Origin: a virus | Reading direction: 5' to 3' (one strand) | Virus record (IMG/VR): IMGVR_UViG_3300025030_000012 | DNA length: 64,000 bases | Shown: one piece after another, positions 35,527 through 43,619 of the stretch | How positions within the stretch are numbered: position 1 is the stretch's first letter | Layout of the letters: every line of letters starts with the position of its first letter | Position numbers and translations under genes: made by a program | Notes under the pieces: generated by a model | Told to the model about the DNA's origin: nothing | The model's input: the letters and a program-made list of their open reading frames with translations, nothing else | Databases searched by the model: none

Positions 35527-38151
35527 ATGGATGAAACCAACCTCGAGGAAATGTCGGTCGAGGAATTCCGTGAACTCCAAGCCGAAGCCGACCGCATAGA
35601 ATTCTCCCAGGCGAAAGAAAACTTCGCCGTCTACTGCGGTCTCCACATCCCGGCAGAGGTCGAAAAAGACGACATGCCGAGGCTGCATGAATTGAGCCTG
35701 CCGGCGCGGTACATTCCGGCGACGCATCACCAGTTGATTTGCAAGTTGTTGCAGGCGCTGGAAGAGGGCGAGCTGCATGGGAGGAAGTTCAGGAACCTGA
35801 TTATTCAGGCGCCGCCTGGTAGTGCGAAAGCGCTTGCGCTCGATACGCCGATTCCAACGCCATCGGGCTGGCGCAGAATGGGCGACATGCAGATCGGAGA
35901 TTGCGTATTCGATGAGCAAGGAAAGGTGTGCCGCGTGACATGGGTCAGCCCAATCTTCAAGGACAGGCCGGTCTACAAGGTGCTCACTGACTGCGGAGAC
36001 GAAATCATCGCCGACCATGACCACGAGTGGCGTGCGCGACTTGATAGAAGGCACGGCGCATTCCGAGATCACGAGACACACATCATCGCTCGACGGCGTA
36101 ACAAACGGGCCATGGTAGAGCACGCGAAGGCTCTTGACCTACCAGACGCAAATCTTCCAATCGACCCCTACCTGCTTGGGATGTGGCTCGGAAACGGTAA
36201 CAGCGCAGGACTTCGCATTACTTGCCATCAAGATGATGTTAGCTGGGTGCGCGACGAGCTTGGTCGTCTTGGATATAAGACATCCGATTCATCGTCGCCT
36301 TTGAATTTTGGAGTGCTCGGCGTTCGCCATCTCTTCGTGCAACTCGGTCTAGTCAATGATCCTGCACACAAGACCTATGGGAAAAAATACATCCCCAAGA
36401 TTTACATGCGCGGATCAATAAGGCAACGGCTCGCACTGGTTCAAGGGCTCATTGATTCGGATGGAACGGTTAGCAACAAGCAAGGATCTGCGACGTTCTG
36501 CAACACCAACGAATGGCTGGCATTGCAGTTCAGAGAACTGGTGCGCTCGCTCGGCGTCAAGGCTGGATGGTCGGTGTCAAAGGCAATGCTCTATGGCGTC
36601 CAACATGGTATGGCCTATCACGTTTCCTTCTACATGAAGGAGGCCGCGCGCTCTCCACGAAAGAGCGCAAACGCGAGAGATCAGTACCGAACTCCAAACA
36701 CGTATATCTCAGCGGAGCCATGCGGGACTGCGGATACGATCTGCATCGAAGTTGATTCACCATCTCATCTCTATCTATGTGGCGAGTCAATGACTCCTAC
36801 GCACAACAGCACCTACTGTTCGCATTTATTTCCATCGTGGTATCTCGGCAAACATCCAGCATTTAATGTGATTCAGGGATCACAGACGGATGATCTTGCC
36901 CATCGCTTTGGACGTAGAGCGAGAAACACGTTTGCAAGTGAACTGCATCACAAGGTCTTCAATGTTGGCGTCGCGTCAGATTCGCGCGCAGCAGGTTCTT
37001 GGGAAACAGAGAAAGGTGGCGAATACTTTGCCACTGGCGTTCAACCTTTTGCCGGAAGACGCGCGGAACTCCTTTGTATCGACGACGCCATCCGGGGACA
37101 AGAGGATGCGGATTCGCAAAATGTTCTGGACAAGATTTGGAACTGGTATGTTCATGATGCCTGGCCTCGCCTGAAACCGCACGGAAAACAGGTCATCGTT
37201 TCAACAAGATGGTCAGAGGGGGACATCATCGGCCGCATCATCCCCAAAACCTTCGCCGGCAAAACCGGATGGGTCAAGGGCAAAGACGGCGAGATGTGGT
37301 ACGTCCTCTGTTTGAAAGCCGTGATCGAGACCGAAGAGGACGCCGCCAACGATCCGCTCGGGCGCAAGGTGGACGAGATCCTGTGGCCGGAATGGTTCAC
37401 CCGCGAGATGATGGACACCGCCAAGGTCAAGGCCGGGATCAGAGGCTGGGCCGGGCAGTACCAGCAGATGCCAAGACCCGAAGGCGGAGCCATTCTGCTC
37501 TCGAACTGGTGGCGCGAATGGAAACAGGAACTGCCGAAAGTCGAGTACGTCATCCAGGTCTACGATACGGCTTTCGAGGAAGGCGAGGAAAACTCCTACT
37601 CGGCTCGAACAACCTGGGGAATCTTTTCTCACACAGATACCCTGCAAAAGAAGGATGGTCTCAACGTCGAGCGGACACGATACTGCTGCATCCTGCTTGA
37701 GGCGTGGCGCTCCAAGTGTGAATTCACCGAACTGCGGGATGAGGCGAAACGGGGATACAAGCGATACCGGCCGGACCGGGTGCTGATCGAGAAGCGGGCC
37801 AGCGGCCATTCACTTTTGCAAGAACTCCGCCGCGCCGGACTCCCGGTACGCCCGGCAAATCCGAAGTGGATGGGGCGCTCCAAGCGTGCCCGTGCCTACG
37901 CCGCTCAGACCGTGCTCGAGGACGGCTGCGTCTTCTACCCCTGCAAGTTCAGGGAAGGGACGTGGACGCCTTACTCGTGGGCGCTGCCGGTGGTCGACGA
38001 GGTCGCCGGCTACCCGGATGGAGAATTCACCGATTACGCCGACACTGCCATCCACGCCTGGCTCTGGCTGCGCCAGCACTGGCACCTGAAGCTGACCGAC
38101 GAGGACGAGGACAAGCCGGTGGAGAAACGACGCATCCAGATGTTTGGGTAG
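35527..38151 (+). CDS. terL: Terminase large subunit, intein-containing
   Basis: Walker A APPGSAK|ST, Walker B LLCIDD, STRW motif, nuclease domain DTAF, VLIEKRASG, DYAD. Confidence 0.95.
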   Translation: MDETNLEEMSVEEFRELQAEADRIEFSQAKENFAVYCGLHIPAEVEKDDMPRLHELSLPARYIPATHHQLICKLLQALEEGELHGRKFRNLIIQAPPGSAKALALDTPIPTPSGWRRMGDMQIGDCVFDEQGKVCRVTWVSPIFKDRPVYKVLTDCGDEIIADHDHEWRARLDRRHGAFRDHETHIIARRRNKRAMVEHAKALDLPDANLPIDPYLLGMWLGNGNSAGLRITCHQDDVSWVRDELGRLGYKTSDSSSPLNFGVLGVRHLFVQLGLVNDPAHKTYGKKYIPKIYMRGSIRQRLALVQGLIDSDGTVSNKQGSATFCNTNEWLALQFRELVRSLGVKAGWSVSKAMLYGVQHGMAYHVSFYMKEAARSPRKSANARDQYRTPNTYISAEPCGTADTICIEVDSPSHLYLCGESMTPTHNSTYCSHLFPSWYLGKHPAFNVIQGSQTDDLAHRFGRRARNTFASELHHKVFNVGVASDSRAAGSWETEKGGEYFATGVQPFAGRRAELLCIDDAIRGQEDADSQNVLDKIWNWYVHDAWPRLKPHGKQVIVSTRWSEGDIIGRIIPKTFAGKTGWVKGKDGEMWYVLCLKAVIETEEDAANDPLGRKVDEILWPEWFTREMMDTAKVKAGIRGWAGQYQQMPRPEGGAILLSNWWREWKQELPKVEYVIQVYDTAFEEGEENSYSARTTWGIFSHTDTLQKKDGLNVERTRYCCILLEAWRSKCEFTELRDEAKRGYKRYRPDRVLIEKRASGHSLLQELRRAGLPVRPANPKWMGRSKRARAYAAQTVLEDGCVFYPCKFREGTWTPYSWALPVVDEVAGYPDGEFTDYADTAIHAWLWLRQHWHLKLTDEDEDKPVEKRRIQMFG
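35830..36807 (+). mobile_element. Class 3 (Ala1, WCT) intein (326 aa) with LAGLIDADG endonuclease
   Basis: Starts ALALDTPIPTPSGW; block B DHDHEW, block F DTICIEV, block G TPTHN then Ser+1; LLGMWLGNG and LVQGLIDSDG motifs. Confidence 0.9.
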
Positions 38152-38152
38152 G

Positions 38153-38558
38153 TGGCGGAAGGCTGAAGAATCGAACTCCGAACCCTGCTTAGGTGTCCCC
38201 CTGGTTTTCGACTAAATCGTTTTGCGTGTTTCAGTTCTGATGGCGTGACAGTTGGCGCATACCACGTCACATTTTGCAATCTCAGCATGTAGGACGGCGA
38301 TGTTTTTGATCTTGGCTGTGGCGCTGCCGATAGCGAGGTTCTTCTTGCCACGAACATGATCGAACTGCATCGCGCAGGTAGGATACTCAATGCCGCAATC
38401 GGCGCATGGCCTTGCTTTTGCCAACCCGATCACACGCCTGATCTCGGCGCGACGCTCGCGCGTATAGATCGTCATATACGCCCGCTGTTTCTTTTGGTCC
38501 GAGTATGGCAAGATAGTTGAATACTAACATGGAACGGACCGTTCCAGCGGAGCCTTCC
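38153..38558 (-). pseudogene. tRNA-Ser(CGA) split by an HNH cassette (5' part about 38538-38558, 3' part 38153-38211)
   Basis: GGAAGGC pairs with GCCTTCC-G-CCA; the 3' part begins T-CGA-AA-ACCAG and has a long variable arm and T arm. Confidence 0.7.
38212..38511 (-). CDS. HNH endonuclease inserted in tRNA-Ser(CGA)
   Basis: CADCG...FDHVRG...CDVVCANCH; the TAG stop abuts U33 of the tRNA. Confidence 0.85.
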   Translation of the reverse strand: MPYSDQKKQRAYMTIYTRERRAEIRRVIGLAKARPCADCGIEYPTCAMQFDHVRGKKNLAIGSATAKIKNIAVLHAEIAKCDVVCANCHAIRTETRKTI

Positions 38559-38689: not shown

Positions 38690-38761
38690 CGAACCGTATG
38701 GGAGTCGGACCCATCTTGACAGGTTGAAAGCCTGTTGGCCTCACCGGAAGCCGAACGGTTC
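38690..38761 (-). tRNA. tRNA-Glu(TTC), variant T-loop, no encoded CCA
   Basis: GAACCGT/ACGGTTC, ACAGG-CT-TTC-AA-CCTGT, T-loop TCCGACT. Confidence 0.8.
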
Positions 38762-39462: not shown

Positions 39463-39539
39463 TGGTACCCCGGAAAGGATTCGAACCTTCAATAGCCTCG
39501 TTCTAAGCGAGGAGACTTTGCCATTTTGTCCACCGGGGC
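39463..39539 (-). tRNA. tRNA-Leu(TAG) with short variable loop
   Basis: GCCCCGG/CCGGGGT-A-CCA, CCTCG-CT-TAG-AA-CGAGG, 5-nt variable loop. Confidence 0.88.
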
Positions 39540-39545
39540 GTTATT

Positions 39546-39630
39546 TGGTGATGAGTGATGGAGTCGAACCACCTATGCCGAGCATGCTTGAGGGTTACAG
39601 CCTCACCGATTGCCGTTCTCGCAACTCACC
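39546..39630 (-). tRNA. tRNA-Tyr(GTA)
   Basis: GGTGAGT/ACTCATC-A-CCA, TGAGG-CT-GTA-AC-CCTCA, long variable arm. Confidence 0.92.
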
Positions 39631-39631
39631 T

Positions 39632-40159
39632 TGGTGGGCCTGCTGGGACTCGAACCCAGAACATCTTCACGCTTGGCTATGACAGTTTGGGCAAAGGAAT
39701 CGAAGATTCTTCTTCCTATCGTCCAACCTATTCCTATTACGATGATCCACATCCAATACCAGAGGCTTACCTTTCCATTCTGGCCCCAACCCACACTGCT
39801 CACATAGATGGGGGACCCCACTCTCAATCAAAGCCCTTCGCAAATACGCCGCACCTTGTCTGTCACCAACATCACGTTTAACTAAAATACTTGCCGCTGT
39901 TCTCCTTGGCTGTTTCTTTCCTTTGTTCCATGCTCTACCTGTGAAATGACTGGTGTCTACCCCAGCCCTCTGCATCCTTCTTCGTATGTGCCCATGGCTA
40001 CCCCCAGGGAGCAATATACCCAAAAATCTCAACACCCCTGTGATGGAGGTTGAATTCTCTGCGGCTTCATGAAGTTGATCATCTGAATAGCGTGGCATTC
40101 GCTATTCTAACACGAAATTACAGAGAGGCAAGCGCGACTGCCAATTGCGCCACAGGCCC
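39632..40159 (-). pseudogene. Leu-like tRNA split by an HNH cassette (5' part about 40126-40159, 3' part about 39632-39681); anticodon unresolved
   Basis: GGGCCTG/CAGGCCC-A-CCA, Leu-type D arm GCGCAATTGGCAGTCGCG, then CTTGC-CT; the 3' part has CCAAG, a variable arm and T arm CTGGG-TTCGAGT-CCCAG. Confidence 0.7.
39667..40098 (-). CDS. HNH endonuclease inserted in the Leu-like tRNA
   Basis: CEQCG...LDVDHRNRNRLDDRKKNLRFLCPNCHSQ; the last codons overlap the tRNA 3' half. Confidence 0.9.
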   Translation of the reverse strand: MPRYSDDQLHEAAENSTSITGVLRFLGILLPGGSHGHIRRRMQRAGVDTSHFTGRAWNKGKKQPRRTAASILVKRDVGDRQGAAYLRRALIESGVPHLCEQCGLGPEWKGKPLVLDVDHRNRNRLDDRKKNLRFLCPNCHSQA

Positions 40160-40200
40160 AGCGTTTAGCTGAGTCGGTATCGCAATCGTAAAGGCGCTTG

Positions 40201-40275
40201 GGGGTGACTGGTGAGAGTCGAACTCACGATAAGGGAGTCACAATCCCTTGGCTTGGCCGCTTGCTGACAGCCACC
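40201..40275 (-). tRNA. tRNA-His(GTG)
   Basis: G-1 GTGGCTG/CAGTCAC-C73, AGGGA-TT-GTG-AC-TCCCT. Confidence 0.88.
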
Positions 40276-41063: not shown

Positions 41064-43619
41064 ATGAACGGAAACGGACCTCACCCGTTCGATCCGAGCC
41101 ACGAACGCACACCCGGGGCAATCCCGGCGGGAGCTATTGTTGACCTCACGATGCCGATGCCCCAAGGCGACGAGGCGCGCATCACGCAGTCGGGCGAGGA
41201 TGTCATCGTCGATTTCGCCCCGGACAAGCAGGACCTTCCGTTCAACGCCGAGGACGCCAAGGAACATGGCGCCAACCTCGCGCGCTTCATCACCGACACC
41301 GAAAAAGCTCGCATCGCCCAGGACGTGATCCGATGGGTTGATGCCGACGTTGAGGCCCGCCAACCGTGGGTAGACAAACTTGCCGATGGCTTGGTCCTCC
41401 TGGGGGTGGTCAAGGACGCCTCGGACCTGGGTCCGCTTGGAGCTGCCGAGAAAGTCACCCACCCGCTGCTCGCCGAAGCGGCGATTCAGTACCAGTCGCG
41501 CGCCATCACCGAACTGTTCCCCTCCGGCGGGCCGGCAAAATGGGAAGTGCTCGGGGATGTGACCGAGGAGAAGGAAGACTCAGCCGACCGGCTGGCGAAC
41601 TTCCTCAATTTCACCCTCACGATTCAAGACAAGTCCTACTACAACGAATTCGACCGCATGCTATTCGTGCAGTCCTACGAGGGCAGTCAGTTCAAGAAGA
41701 TTTCCTACGATCCGCTAGTCGGAACTCCGGTTTCTCGCTGGGTGCGGGGACAGCACTTTATTGTGCCCTACGGCGCGGCAAGCCTTCAGTCGGCCCCGCG
41801 CTACACCCACGAGCAGAAGATCGAGCACAACGACGTTCTGAAGCTACAAGACATCGGCTTCTACACCGACGATGTTCTGGGTGAACCAACAGGGACCGCA
41901 CCGAGCGATTACAACACCATCAAGGAAAAGAAAGACGAAGCCGAGGGCATGACGCCTTCCATCCTGCTCGGAGAAATGCAGCCGCACATCTTCCTGGAGA
42001 TGCACGCCAACTGGGATCTGGCAGGATTCGAGCACGTCAACGACAAGAAGAAGAAAACCGGGATAGCACTCCCCTACATCGCCCACGTCGAGCGCGACAG
42101 CCAGAAGCTCCTTGGGCTGTACCGAAACTGGAAGGAAGATGATTCACTGCAAAGAAAACGGGTCTGGTTCGTCCACTACCCATTTATCCCGGGCGACGGC
42201 TTCTACTCCTACGGCTACGTGCACCTGGCCTCGGGAATCGCCAGAGCCTCGACCTTCGCCCTCCGTGTTCTCCTGATGGGGTCCGCTTTTGCCTCGATGG
42301 CCGGCGGGTTCAAGACGAAGAGCGCGCGCACCACGGGAAATATCACCCTTCAGGCCGGCGTGTTTCAGGACACCGACATGGAGTTCGAAGAACTGTCGAA
42401 GATGTTCTACTCGCCGAACTTCAAGGAACCCAGTCAGGCCCTGTTTCAGACCTTGGGGCTGCTCGTTGAGGGCGGCCAAAGGCTTTTCTCTACGCAGGAC
42501 GCTATGGTTGGGGACGCCTCGAACACCGGACCCGTAGGAACCACGGTCGCTTTGATCGAGGAAGGCAAGAAGGTCTTTTCCGCAGTGCACAAGCGGGGGC
42601 ACGCGGCTCTCGGGGAAGAACTCCAGATCCTCCGCGACGTGTGGAAGGAATACATCCCGGAAGGCGGATACCCCTACGACATCCCGGGCGAGTCCAGGGA
42701 AGTCATGGCCGAGGACTTCGCCGACTACGCCAACATCGTTCCGGTCTCGGACCCGAACATCTTCAGCTCGACGCAGCGAATCGCCCTGGCGCAGTCAGTA
42801 GGGCAGATGGCGATCGCAAACCCCGCCATGGACCGCCGGGAAGCCGACAGCATGATGCTGAGAGCCCTTCGCATACCGCAGGAGCAAATCAACCAGCTCC
42901 TGCCGGACCCCAAGGACATCAAGCGGGCGGACCCGGTCACGGAAAACGCCCTCATCATGGCCGGCCGTCCGGTAAAGGTTTTCGTCGATCAGGATCACGG
43001 CTCCCATTACCAAGTCCACCAGACTCAGCTCCAGGCCATGCAGGCCCAAGCCCCTCAGAACCCGCTCATCGCAGAACGCATTCCAGTCCTGATGGCCCAT
43101 GTTGCGGAGCACCAAGCCTACGGGGAAAGGCTTGGAATGATGAAAATGCTCGGAATCGAGCTGCCGCCGATGGACTTGGACGCCGACGAGCAGGAAATGC
43201 CGGGCATTCCGCCCGAACTGGACGCCATGATTTCCCAAAGAGCCGCGATTGCAGTCTCCAAGATGCCGCGGCCACCCCAACCACAGGATCTGGCGGCCCA
43301 GGCCGACGACCTGAAGAAGCGCGAGGACGCGCTGGCCGCCGAGCAGGAGAAGCTCGCCAAGGCCCGCGAAGGTATAGCCGGGGAGCAGAACAACCTCATC
43401 ACGCTGCGCGCTCAGGCTGAGAAAGAGTCGATGCGGGCGAAGTACGAGCAGGATCTGGCCGACAAGGATGCCGAGATCCGGGCCCTGAAGCTCCAAGGCG
43501 ACATCGAAAAGCGAGTGAACACCGCCGTCGACCGGGTTGAAAAAGCTCTCACCGACATGAAGAACGCCGCGCTGAAGGCGTCCGAAGCGTCATCCTCTCA
43601 AGGAGCGGCTTCCAAATGA
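41064..43619 (+). CDS. Portal protein (P22-like) with C-terminal coiled coil
   Basis: 851 aa after terL; HPLLAEAAIQYQSRA, F.K...D, GFYSYG, PVSDPN motifs; long helical barrel-like tail. Confidence 0.85.
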   Translation: MNGNGPHPFDPSHERTPGAIPAGAIVDLTMPMPQGDEARITQSGEDVIVDFAPDKQDLPFNAEDAKEHGANLARFITDTEKARIAQDVIRWVDADVEARQPWVDKLADGLVLLGVVKDASDLGPLGAAEKVTHPLLAEAAIQYQSRAITELFPSGGPAKWEVLGDVTEEKEDSADRLANFLNFTLTIQDKSYYNEFDRMLFVQSYEGSQFKKISYDPLVGTPVSRWVRGQHFIVPYGAASLQSAPRYTHEQKIEHNDVLKLQDIGFYTDDVLGEPTGTAPSDYNTIKEKKDEAEGMTPSILLGEMQPHIFLEMHANWDLAGFEHVNDKKKKTGIALPYIAHVERDSQKLLGLYRNWKEDDSLQRKRVWFVHYPFIPGDGFYSYGYVHLASGIARASTFALRVLLMGSAFASMAGGFKTKSARTTGNITLQAGVFQDTDMEFEELSKMFYSPNFKEPSQALFQTLGLLVEGGQRLFSTQDAMVGDASNTGPVGTTVALIEEGKKVFSAVHKRGHAALGEELQILRDVWKEYIPEGGYPYDIPGESREVMAEDFADYANIVPVSDPNIFSSTQRIALAQSVGQMAIANPAMDRREADSMMLRALRIPQEQINQLLPDPKDIKRADPVTENALIMAGRPVKVFVDQDHGSHYQVHQTQLQAMQAQAPQNPLIAERIPVLMAHVAEHQAYGERLGMMKMLGIELPPMDLDADEQEMPGIPPELDAMISQRAAIAVSKMPRPPQPQDLAAQADDLKKREDALAAEQEKLAKAREGIAGEQNNLITLRAQAEKESMRAKYEQDLADKDAEIRALKLQGDIEKRVNTAVDRVEKALTDMKNAALKASEASSSQGAASK

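What the first reader, a model, noticed from the sequence alone, without database searches (positions are those of the whole stretch)
39632..40159. Second tRNA (Leu-like) split the same way, with the HNH C-terminus encoded by tRNA sequence
Seen: the 5' part ends at CTTGC-CT. A 27-nt spacer follows with TG-T-TAGAAT 5 nt before ATG (a leaderless mRNA). The tRNA's own TTGCCT lies 16 bp upstream as a possible -35. The conserved HNH end C-P-N-C-H-S-Q-A-stop runs into the tRNA 3' half (CATAGCCAAGCGTGA). The architecture parallels the Ser(CGA) case although the two HNH proteins are unrelated in sequence. Inference: a recurrent class of minimal tRNA-targeting mobile cassettes.
Basis: partly seen in the sequence, partly recalled or inferred. 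Interest (0 to 1): 0.72.

Follow-up and report, generated by a model that had tools for sequence, protein, structure and literature searches.

The report
Homing nuclease gene splitting phage tRNA-Leu
A selfish DNA-cutting-enzyme gene with its own promoter has landed in the anticodon loop of a phage leucine-tRNA gene and almost certainly killed it; related phages still have the unbroken gene, and the same enzyme family haunts leucine-tRNA genes in hundreds of other phages.

Summary
On the minus strand, 40159-40126 is the 5' part of a tRNA and 39675-39632 is the matching 3' part. Between them lie 450 bp: a 27-nt spacer with an extended -10 box, and a 143-aa HNH endonuclease ORF.

Two metagenome contigs (L107, L092) share the flanking tRNAs and carry an uninterrupted 77-nt tRNA-Leu(CAA) at this place. 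The locus is therefore an insertion after U33, not an ARAGORN artefact.

No ribozyme is detectable, and only 27 nt are non-coding. The 3' strand of the anticodon stem has been remodelled to supply the TGA stop. I read this as an intron-less homing endonuclease gene that inactivated the tRNA (about 0.75), not as a spliced intron (about 0.07).

The HNH family (PHROG 10822, more than 2,200 members) is strongly tied to tRNA-Leu genes: 46 of 80 IMG/VR loci have one directly flanking. At least five further loci show split tRNAs, and three show orphan 5' halves. A -10 box 4-7 nt before the ATG recurs in the family.

The closest known system is T4 SegB. This scan has already noted similar tRNA-Leu-splitting HNH cassettes on other DNA. 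This one is the minimal form, without a replacement tRNA. Novelty: a new variant of a known kind.

The parts
40126..40159 (-). 5' fragment of tRNA-Leu(CAA): acceptor strand, D arm, 5' strand of the anticodon stem and C32-U33
   Evidence: Read from the sequence. The first 27 nt are identical to the intact tRNA-Leu(CAA) of L092. ARAGORN -i uses it as the 5' exon.
39676..40125 (-). 450-bp insertion relative to intact alleles (27-nt spacer plus HNH ORF). C34 is present at both junctions, so the junction is 33|34 or 34|35.
   Evidence: BLAST and MAFFT against L107 and L092: the flanks align at 85-94% identity and the insert is absent from them. GC is 0.476 against 0.581 for the window.
40104..40131 (-). 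Promoter-like site: TTGCCT (last 6 nt of the tRNA fragment), 16-nt spacer, TG-extended -10 box TGTTAGAAT
   Evidence: Promoter scan. TGTTAGWAT occurs only twice in the 64 kb, both times in front of a tRNA-splitting HNH ORF. A -10 box 4-7 nt before the ATG is enriched in the family.
39667..40098 (-). HNH endonuclease ORF, 143 aa. There is no Shine-Dalgarno sequence, and the ATG lies 5 nt after the -10 box. The stop codon TGA lies in remodelled tRNA sequence.
   Evidence: ORF list. PHROG 10822 at E 5.8e-45; Pfam HNH at E 0.001. All invariant Cys/Asp-His/Asn/His columns of the family alignment are present. The AlphaFold2 model has pLDDT 89.
39632..39675 (-). 3' fragment of tRNA-Leu(CAA): anticodon CAA, altered 3' strand of the anticodon stem, variable loop, T arm, acceptor strand, A73, CCA
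   Evidence: Alignment with the intact alleles. The acceptor strand is complementary to the 5' fragment at 7 of 7 positions. The ORF's last 9 nt overlap this fragment.
40199..40275 (-). Flanking tRNA-His(GUG), the upstream neighbour
   Evidence: ARAGORN. It is the same neighbour as in L107.
39546..39630 (-). Flanking tRNA-Tyr(GUA), which starts 2 nt after the CCA of the split tRNA
   Evidence: ARAGORN. It is the same neighbour as in L107 and L092.

Best explanation
This is an intron-less homing endonuclease gene sitting inside a phage tRNA-Leu(CAA) gene.

Shown:
- A 450-bp cassette (a TG-extended -10 promoter, a start codon without Shine-Dalgarno sequence, and a 143-aa HNH nuclease with an N-terminal helical domain) lies after U33 of the tRNA gene.
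- Related phages have the same gene uninterrupted.
- The nuclease belongs to a large phage family that sits beside, overlaps or splits tRNA-Leu genes.

Inferred:
- The enzyme cuts or nicks intact tRNA-Leu gene DNA in a co-infecting phage that lacks it.
- Repair from the carrier genome copies the cassette in, with the two tRNA fragments serving as homology arms.
- Splitting the site protects the carrier genome from its own enzyme.
- The mRNA starts at or next to the ATG (leaderless) and is also part of the read-through transcript of the tRNA array.
- Translation ends at a TGA created in the former 3' strand of the anticodon stem.
- No RNA-level removal takes place, so tRNA-Leu(CAA) is lost. The phage tolerates this because phage tRNAs are accessory.
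For: Insertion, not artefact:
- L107 has Pro-His-Leu(CAA)-Tyr and L092 has Pro-Leu(CAA)-Tyr. The flanks are 85-94% identical to the window, and both carry a contiguous 77-nt tRNA-Leu(CAA).
- The insert is compositionally foreign.

Nuclease identity:
- The HNH motif and zinc-binding cysteines are intact and the fold is confident.

No sign of splicing:
- No Rfam family, including group I and II introns, matches the insert even at E<=10 on 601 nt.
- Only 27 nt are non-coding, and the ORF is collinear with free-standing relatives over its full length.
- Joined at U33|C34, the product has an anticodon stem of 2 Watson-Crick pairs, 2 G-U pairs and 1 mismatch. Its minimum-energy fold pairs the CAA anticodon into a 9-bp helix. 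The intact alleles have 4-5 Watson-Crick pairs.
- In the intact alleles the same reading frame stays open for at least 24 codons. The window has TGA at the third codon.

Family behaviour:
- Of 80 IMG/VR loci, 22 of 41 upstream and 31 of 56 downstream neighbour tRNAs are Leu, against 16% among the other tRNAs of those loci.
- In cultured phages the gene sits directly upstream of tRNA-Leu: phiPsa347 and Michonne.
- Split and orphan variants with variably lost 3' parts look like decay, not conservation.

Precedent:
- T4 SegB is a free-standing homing endonuclease in a tRNA cluster. It recognises tRNA-gene DNA, and its mRNA is cut by maturation of the downstream tRNA (PMC2330249).
Against: - No enzyme activity, transcript start or tRNA product has been measured.
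- ARAGORN still accepts the joined sequence as tRNA-Leu(CAA).
- All other stems of both fragments are perfect (acceptor 7 of 7, T arm 5 of 5). This fits a recent insertion but also fits continuing selection.
- Two of the three changes in the stem strand keep G-U pairing.
- The promoter match alone is not significant: 2 sites found against 1.5 expected.
- I found no second copy of this exact insertion allele, so the junctions cannot be compared.
Confidence: 0.75

Rival explanations
1. The 450 nt are a functional intervening sequence. The transcript is cut at both junctions and rejoined, by an unrecognised ribozyme or by protein enzymes such as a nuclease plus an RtcB- or Rnl-type ligase. This would yield a working tRNA-Leu(CAA).
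For: - Both halves keep perfect acceptor, D and T stems.
- The joined sequence is still called tRNA-Leu(CAA) with a 7-nt loop.
- The junction 33|34 is where anticodon nucleases such as PrrC cut (my own knowledge).
- In L066 the two halves rejoin into a flawless tRNA-Leu(GAG).
Against: - No ribozyme family matches the insert.
- Only 27 nt are non-coding, and neither possible intron end has a terminal G.
- The anticodon stem is weakened, and the predicted fold buries the anticodon.
- Twenty further ORFs of the window gave no RNA ligase, kinase-phosphatase or RtcB domain.
- Other family loci have lost the 3' anticodon strand (L071) or the whole 3' half (L002, L113, L119).
- L066 and L024 carry a spare tRNA-Leu inside the insert, which would be pointless if splicing worked.
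Confidence: 0.07
2. The HNH protein is a domesticated phage enzyme, for example a terminase-associated packaging nuclease, because it lies between the large terminase and portal genes. Its position inside the tRNA would then be incidental.
For: - The tRNA array with both HNH genes lies between the large terminase gene (35527-38151) and the portal gene (41064-43619).
- HNH proteins next to terminase genes assist cos cleavage in some phages (my own knowledge).
Against: - Across 80 viral loci and in cultured phages, the constant neighbour is a tRNA-Leu gene, not a terminase gene.
- The gene is absent from the close relatives L107 and L092.
- Its composition is foreign.
Confidence: 0.05
3. The arrangement arose by deletions between two separate tRNA genes that once flanked a free-standing HNH gene, not by insertion into one tRNA gene.
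For: - Most family members sit between two intact tRNAs, often two Leu genes.
- The segment TGAAG-ATGTT resembles the tRNA-Leu(CAA) upstream of the HNH gene in L016.
Against: - The two fragments have complementary acceptor strands (7 of 7).
- Together they are collinear with one tRNA gene in L107 and L092, which has the same outer neighbours.
Confidence: 0.03

Closest known systems
Phage T4 SegB (PMC2330249)
   Same: - A free-standing homing endonuclease gene inside a phage tRNA gene cluster.
- It recognises DNA of tRNA genes.
- It is absent from close relatives (T2L, RB1, RB3).
- Its ORF end abuts the next tRNA, so tRNA maturation cuts its mRNA.
   Different: - SegB is a GIY-YIG enzyme, not HNH.
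- It sits between tRNA genes and recognises the T-loop region.
- Here the gene lies inside a tRNA gene at the anticodon loop, and the family is tied to one amino-acid class (Leu).
[quoted passage not shown] 2004, as cited in PMC2330249, ref. 18)
   Same: Site-specific endonuclease ORFs located in a phage tRNA gene cluster.
   Different: - I could not read the primary paper.
- Neither the passages of PMC2330249 I read nor my literature searches mention a split tRNA gene.
- Homology to the family studied here was not tested.
Group I introns with homing endonuclease ORFs in tRNA anticodon loops: cyanobacterial tRNA-Leu(UAA) and tRNA-fMet introns (my own knowledge; review PMC3984707)
   Same: - A mobile element in the anticodon loop of a tRNA gene, here of a tRNA-Leu gene.
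- The nuclease ORF is carried in the intervening sequence.
- The target site is disrupted by the insertion.
   Different: - No ribozyme is present, with no Rfam match and only 27 nt of non-coding sequence.
- The position is 33|34 rather than 34|35.
- The tRNA is probably not restored.
'Fractured genes': protein genes split by a free-standing homing endonuclease gene between split-intein halves (PMC2677866, abstract seen)
   Same: A homing endonuclease gene physically separates the two halves of its host gene.
   Different: In fractured genes, split inteins rejoin the protein. Here no rejoining device is visible.

Membership tests
HNH (His-Me finger) homing endonuclease, PHROG 10822 | Beta-beta-alpha-metal HNH motif with catalytic His, Asn and His, plus CxxC...CxxC zinc ligands | tested here: met
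   PHROG 10822 at E 5.8e-45. Pfam HNH at E 0.001, below the gathering score. Invariant residues C99, C102, D118-H119, N131, C136, C139 and H140 are present. The model has pLDDT 89, and its nearest solved folds are McrA-type HNH domains, only weakly at E 4e-3.
Homing endonuclease gene (mobile element) | Presence/absence polymorphism at a homologous site in related genomes (an empty-site allele) | tested here: met
   L107 and L092 carry the intact tRNA-Leu(CAA) with the same neighbours.
Homing endonuclease gene (mobile element) | The enzyme cleaves the empty site, and the gene is inherited preferentially in crosses | not testable with these tools
   This needs purified protein and phage crosses.
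Homing endonuclease gene (mobile element) | Relatives occupy the same kind of target in unrelated genomes | tested here: met
   46 of 80 IMG/VR loci have a tRNA-Leu directly flanking; Leu makes up 54-55% of neighbour tRNAs against a 16% background. Cultured Pseudomonas, Citrobacter and Escherichia phages show the same.
Group I intron in a tRNA gene | Conserved catalytic core (P3-P9) within the intervening sequence | tested here: not met
   No Intron_gpI match at E<=1 on 3 kb or at E<=10 on 601 nt. Only 27 nt lie outside the ORF.
Group I intron in a tRNA gene | U at the end of the 5' exon and G at the end of the intron | tested here: not met
   U33 is present. The insert ends ...CATAGC (or ...AGCC with the alternative junction), so it has no terminal G.
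Any tRNA intron | Removal restores a canonical tRNA | tested here: inconclusive
   ARAGORN accepts the joined sequence as Leu(CAA). However, the anticodon stem has 2 Watson-Crick pairs, 2 G-U pairs and 1 mismatch, and the minimum-energy fold pairs the anticodon.
Archaeal-type split or BHB-intron tRNA | Bulge-helix-bulge motif at the junctions and a splicing endonuclease | not tested
   No systematic search for a bulge-helix-bulge motif was made. No such enzyme is known in bacteria or their phages (my own knowledge).
SegB / GIY-YIG Seg family | GIY-YIG catalytic domain | tested here: not met
   Pfam and PHROG searches give only HNH families. The element works like SegB but is not a member of that family.

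The most novel reading that the evidence does not exclude
The two tRNA fragments are not dead. After transcription the HNH segment would be cut out and the halves rejoined by protein enzymes, with no ribozyme involved, to give a working tRNA-Leu(CAA). That would be a new kind of tRNA intron for bacteria and phages. A milder version is that the fragments have been taken over as expression signals for the nuclease: the 5' half as the -35 region, and the T-arm/acceptor/CCA helix as a tRNA-like mRNA 3' end set by RNase P cleavage of the adjacent tRNA-Tyr.
Probability: 0.07. Interest if true: 0.9.

Novelty: new variant of a known kind. Interest (0 to 1): 0.5.

Why it matters
Homing endonuclease genes are thought to survive in conserved genes only when an intron or intein makes the insertion harmless. 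This locus and its relatives show another route: sit in a dispensable but highly conserved phage tRNA gene, with no splicing device.

In some lineages the cassette brings a spare tRNA-Leu. In this one it does not.

The family therefore gives a graded series: free-standing beside a tRNA, overlapping a tRNA, splitting a tRNA, and splitting one while carrying a rescue copy. That series makes it possible to study how such elements invade, and how they reshuffle phage tRNA arrays.

There is also a practical point. Standard tRNA finders miss the split gene, or mislabel it as Gly(ccc) when introns are allowed, and genome annotations often omit the small HNH ORF, as in phiPsa347.

I found no description of HNH-split phage tRNA genes in the searchable literature. 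That library lacks most subscription journals.

Tried and rejected
- Group I, group II or any other Rfam family in the insert: none found.
- L080 and L086, where I suspected a group I 3' end: Rfam is also silent. Left unresolved.
- RNA-repair enzymes, checked because the phage has Ro60 and Y RNAs: Pfam on 20 further ORFs found no RtcB, Rnl or Pnk domain. Not all ORFs were scanned, so absence is not proven.
- Close relatives of the phage: none in INPHARED by DNA. The portal protein is only about 35% identical to Roseobacter and Pelagibacter phages. IMG/VR gave none by portal peptides or by exact tRNA-half patterns.
- Whole genome: none is held for this window.
- The 99%-identical protein P0001: no retrievable contig.
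- ARAGORN's 'Gly(ccc)' label: rejected in favour of Leu(CAA) from homology.
- My early reading that the anticodon was CAT with a 12-nt variable arm: rejected for the same reason.
- Searches for a downstream partner of the orphan 5' halves in L002, L113 and L119: no convincing 3' half.
- Solved-structure searches by sequence and by fold: only weak McrA- and Cap5-type HNH matches, and nothing for the N-terminal domain.
- In my acceptor-complement scan, the hits in L023, L031 and L051 were judged to be chance, because the upstream partner is not tRNA-like. L088/L089 are uncertain.

Full report
**1. What is there**

The window carries a minus-strand tRNA array between the large terminase gene (35527-38151) and the portal gene (41064-43619). 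ARAGORN in default mode leaves a 568-bp gap between tRNA-His (40275-40199) and tRNA-Tyr (39630-39546).

Reading the minus strand of that gap gives, in order:
- A tRNA 5' part at 40159-40126: acceptor GGGCCTG, U8, a Leu-type D arm, then CTTGC-CT.
- A 27-nt spacer.
- An ATG at 40098 that opens a 143-aa ORF ending ...CPNCHSQA-TGA at 39667.
- Overlapping the last 9 nt of the ORF, a tRNA 3' part that ends at 39632: T arm CTGGG/CCCAG, acceptor CAGGCCC, A73 and CCA.

The acceptor strands pair at 7 of 7 positions.

**2. It is an insertion into a tRNA-Leu(CAA) gene**

An exact 22-nt search with the start of the 5' part found 21 metagenome loci. Most are unrelated tRNAs that share only the acceptor and D arm. 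Two contigs from one groundwater assembly are relatives of this phage:
- L107 carries Pro-His-Leu(CAA)-Tyr.
- L092 carries Pro-Leu(CAA) followed by the start of the Tyr gene.

Their flanks align with the window at 85-94% identity on both sides. The 450 bp between the halves are missing from them. In their place is a contiguous 77-nt tRNA-Leu(CAA) with a 5-nt variable loop.

The alignment places the insertion after U33. C34 occurs at both junctions, so 33|34 and 34|35 cannot be told apart. The insert has GC 0.476 against 0.581 for the window. The ORF has GC3 0.44 against 0.65-0.77 for terminase and portal. This points to a recent arrival from elsewhere.

**3. The protein**

The ORF matches PHROG 10822 'HNH endonuclease' at E 5.8e-45. 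It matches Pfam HNH weakly. It has more than 2,200 homologues of similar length at 45-61% identity.

All invariant columns of a 24-sequence alignment are present in the window protein: four Cys, Asp-His, Asn and His. The AlphaFold2 model is confident (pLDDT 89). It shows an N-terminal helical domain followed by a beta-beta-alpha domain. Solved structures match only weakly, as McrA-type HNH.

**4. No splicing device**

Rfam finds no intron or ribozyme family in the insert, either at E<=1 over 3 kb or at E<=10 over 601 nt. Only 27 nt are non-coding. The ORF is collinear over its whole length with relatives that stand free between tRNA genes. That leaves no room for a catalytic core. Neither possible end of the insert is a G.

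Joined at U33|C34, the sequence is still accepted by ARAGORN as Leu(CAA). Its anticodon stem, however, has 2 Watson-Crick pairs, 2 G-U pairs and a C-A mismatch, and its variable loop is one base longer. The minimum-energy fold pairs the CAA anticodon inside a 9-bp helix. The intact alleles have 5 (L092) or 4 (L107) Watson-Crick pairs.

The altered strand is exactly what provides the stop codon. Read in the same frame from CAA, L092 and L107 stay open for at least 24 codons. The window reads CAA-GCG-TGA. The tRNA sequence has therefore been remodelled in favour of the ORF.

Pfam scans of 20 other ORFs found no RNA ligase, RtcB or kinase-phosphatase.

**5. The family is tied to tRNA-Leu genes**

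In 80 IMG/VR loci that encode relatives:
- The nearest same-strand upstream tRNA, where one lies within about 200 nt, is Leu in 22 of 41 cases.
- The nearest downstream tRNA is Leu in 31 of 56 cases.
- Leu makes up 16% of the remaining tRNAs in the same loci.
- 46 loci have a Leu gene on at least one side.

The ORF end often overlaps the 5' end of a complete tRNA-Leu by 9-37 nt. Cultured phages show the same pattern. In Pseudomonas phage phiPsa347 the order is His, then the HNH ORF (not annotated there), then Leu. In Citrobacter phage Michonne it is Ser, HNH, Leu, with a 1-nt gap before the Leu gene.

The architectures form a series:
- (a) Free-standing beside or overlapping a tRNA-Leu. This is the majority.
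- (b) An orphan Leu-type 5' half ending near position 33, then the HNH gene, then a complete tRNA-Leu: L002, L113 and L119.
- (c) A split tRNA with matching halves and only the HNH gene inside: the window, L071 and L026.
- (d) A split tRNA whose insert also carries a complete tRNA-Leu: L066 and L024. In L066 the two halves rejoin into a flawless type II tRNA-Leu(GAG).

The split loci come from contigs with GC from 0.37 to 0.66, and their HNH proteins are only about 40-55% identical to the window's. They are therefore independent cases. In L071 the 3' strand of the anticodon stem is gone. This pattern fits decay after invasion, not conservation of a spliced gene.

**6. Promoter and start codon**

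On its own, the promoter match is not significant: 2 sites in 3.1 kb against 1.5 expected. Comparison with relatives helps.
- L113, whose protein is 58% identical, has an orphan 5' half ending at position 33, then TGGTATAAT, 5 nt, then ATG-CCA.
- L115 has TGATACAAT, 6 nt, then ATG-CCA.
- Over 81 non-redundant loci, TAnnnT lies 4-7 nt before an in-frame ATG in 22, against 11.4 +/- 3.0 in shuffles. TGnTAnnnT does so in 8, against 0.7 +/- 0.8.
- In this window TGTTAGWAT occurs only twice in 64 kb. Each copy lies directly before one of the two tRNA-splitting HNH ORFs, whose proteins are otherwise unrelated.

A leaderless or near-leaderless mRNA from its own promoter is thus well supported by comparison but unproven. 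A role for the tRNA's TTGCCT as a -35 element is not supported by relatives.

**7. Mechanism proposed**

Shown: the insertion, the empty site, the intact nuclease motif and the family's association with tRNA-Leu genes.

Inferred:
- The enzyme recognises tRNA-Leu gene DNA. The Leu-specific D arm is the best-conserved feature shared by all the 5' fragments.
- It breaks the intact allele in a co-infecting genome.
- The break is repaired from the carrier, and the tRNA fragments serve as homology arms.
- The split site is immune to the enzyme.
- tRNA-Leu(CAA) is lost. The array keeps tRNA-Leu(UAG).

**8. Comparison with known systems**

T4 SegB is the best-documented analogue. It is a free-standing homing endonuclease in a tRNA cluster that recognises a conserved tRNA-gene motif. 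It is absent from close relatives, and maturation of the next tRNA is thought to cut its mRNA (PMC2330249). SegB is a GIY-YIG enzyme and lies between genes. The same paper cites endonuclease ORFs in the phage T5 tRNA region.

Group I introns in tRNA anticodon loops share the location but not the ribozyme. 'Fractured genes' (PMC2677866) are the counterpart in protein genes, but there split inteins rejoin the product.

Full-text searches found no paper describing a phage tRNA gene split by an HNH gene.

Earlier notes of this scan describe comparable tRNA-Leu-splitting HNH cassettes on other DNA, mostly with a replacement tRNA or a group I intron. My loci L066 and L024 independently show the replacement-tRNA form. 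The window shows the minimal form without one.

**9. Verdict**

The feature is real and correctly described. The locus is a new variant of a known kind: an intron-less HNH homing endonuclease gene inside a tRNA gene. Confidence in the inactivating-insertion reading is about 0.75, and in RNA-level rejoining about 0.07.

Noticed in passing
window 38153-38558 (- strand): A second split tRNA lies in the same array. A 5' fragment starting GGAAGGC at 38558 and a 3' fragment ending GCCTTCC-G-CCA near 38153 (acceptor strands 7 of 7 complementary) flank an unrelated 99-aa HNH ORF (38511-38212; PHROG 3106). The ORF is preceded by TGTTAGTAT. The stop codon TAG abuts a TCGAAAA loop-like sequence, which would fit Ser(CGA). 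The 5' fragment overlaps a hairpin that the terminator scan also flags.
   Followed up: partly
L079, L080, L081 about 1919-2975; L086 1921-2972: ARAGORN calls a 74-nt tRNA split by about 980 nt, which holds a longer ORF of this HNH family. The roughly 50 nt after the stop codon are conserved between L080 and L086, with a compensated hairpin and motifs reminiscent of a group I 3' end. The anticodon-stem pairs also differ with compensation between the two loci. Rfam gives no group I hit, so this may be an intron with the ORF near its 5' end. It is unresolved.
   Followed up: partly
L066 1811-2576; L024 1678-2497: Here the insert inside a split tRNA-Leu carries a complete tRNA-Leu (CAG in L066, GAG in L024) upstream of the HNH gene. 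The nuclease thus travels with a spare copy of the kind of gene it disrupts.
   Followed up: partly
L002 1419-1991; L113 43-602; L119 1457-2027: An orphan Leu-type tRNA 5' half sits directly before the HNH gene, and a different, complete tRNA-Leu overlaps or abuts the ORF end. No matching 3' half was found downstream.
   Followed up: partly
window 38690-38761 (- strand): Rfam finds a tRNA (46 bits) that ARAGORN misses. Its anticodon loop reads CTTTCAA, which is Glu(UUC)-like, and its D arm is unusual.
   Followed up: partly
window 39463-39539; L092 1788-1864; L107 1158-1234; L016 1905-1981: The tRNA-Leu genes of this phage group are only 77-78 nt long and have a 5-nt variable loop. That is a class-I shape, not the long-arm class-II shape usual for bacterial tRNA-Leu.
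   Followed up: no
L111 701-1132 (Pseudomonas phage phiPsa347, NC_073685.1 28791-29222): A 55%-identical homologue of the HNH ORF lies between tRNA-His and tRNA-Leu. It has no annotated feature in the RefSeq record.
   Followed up: no
L099 about 101-200: In one of the unrelated metagenome hits, a tRNA with the same acceptor and D arm as the others has about 20 extra bases inside its T arm (GGGTTTCCGCCAAAGGCGGACAAACGACCCC). This may be a small insertion.
   Followed up: no
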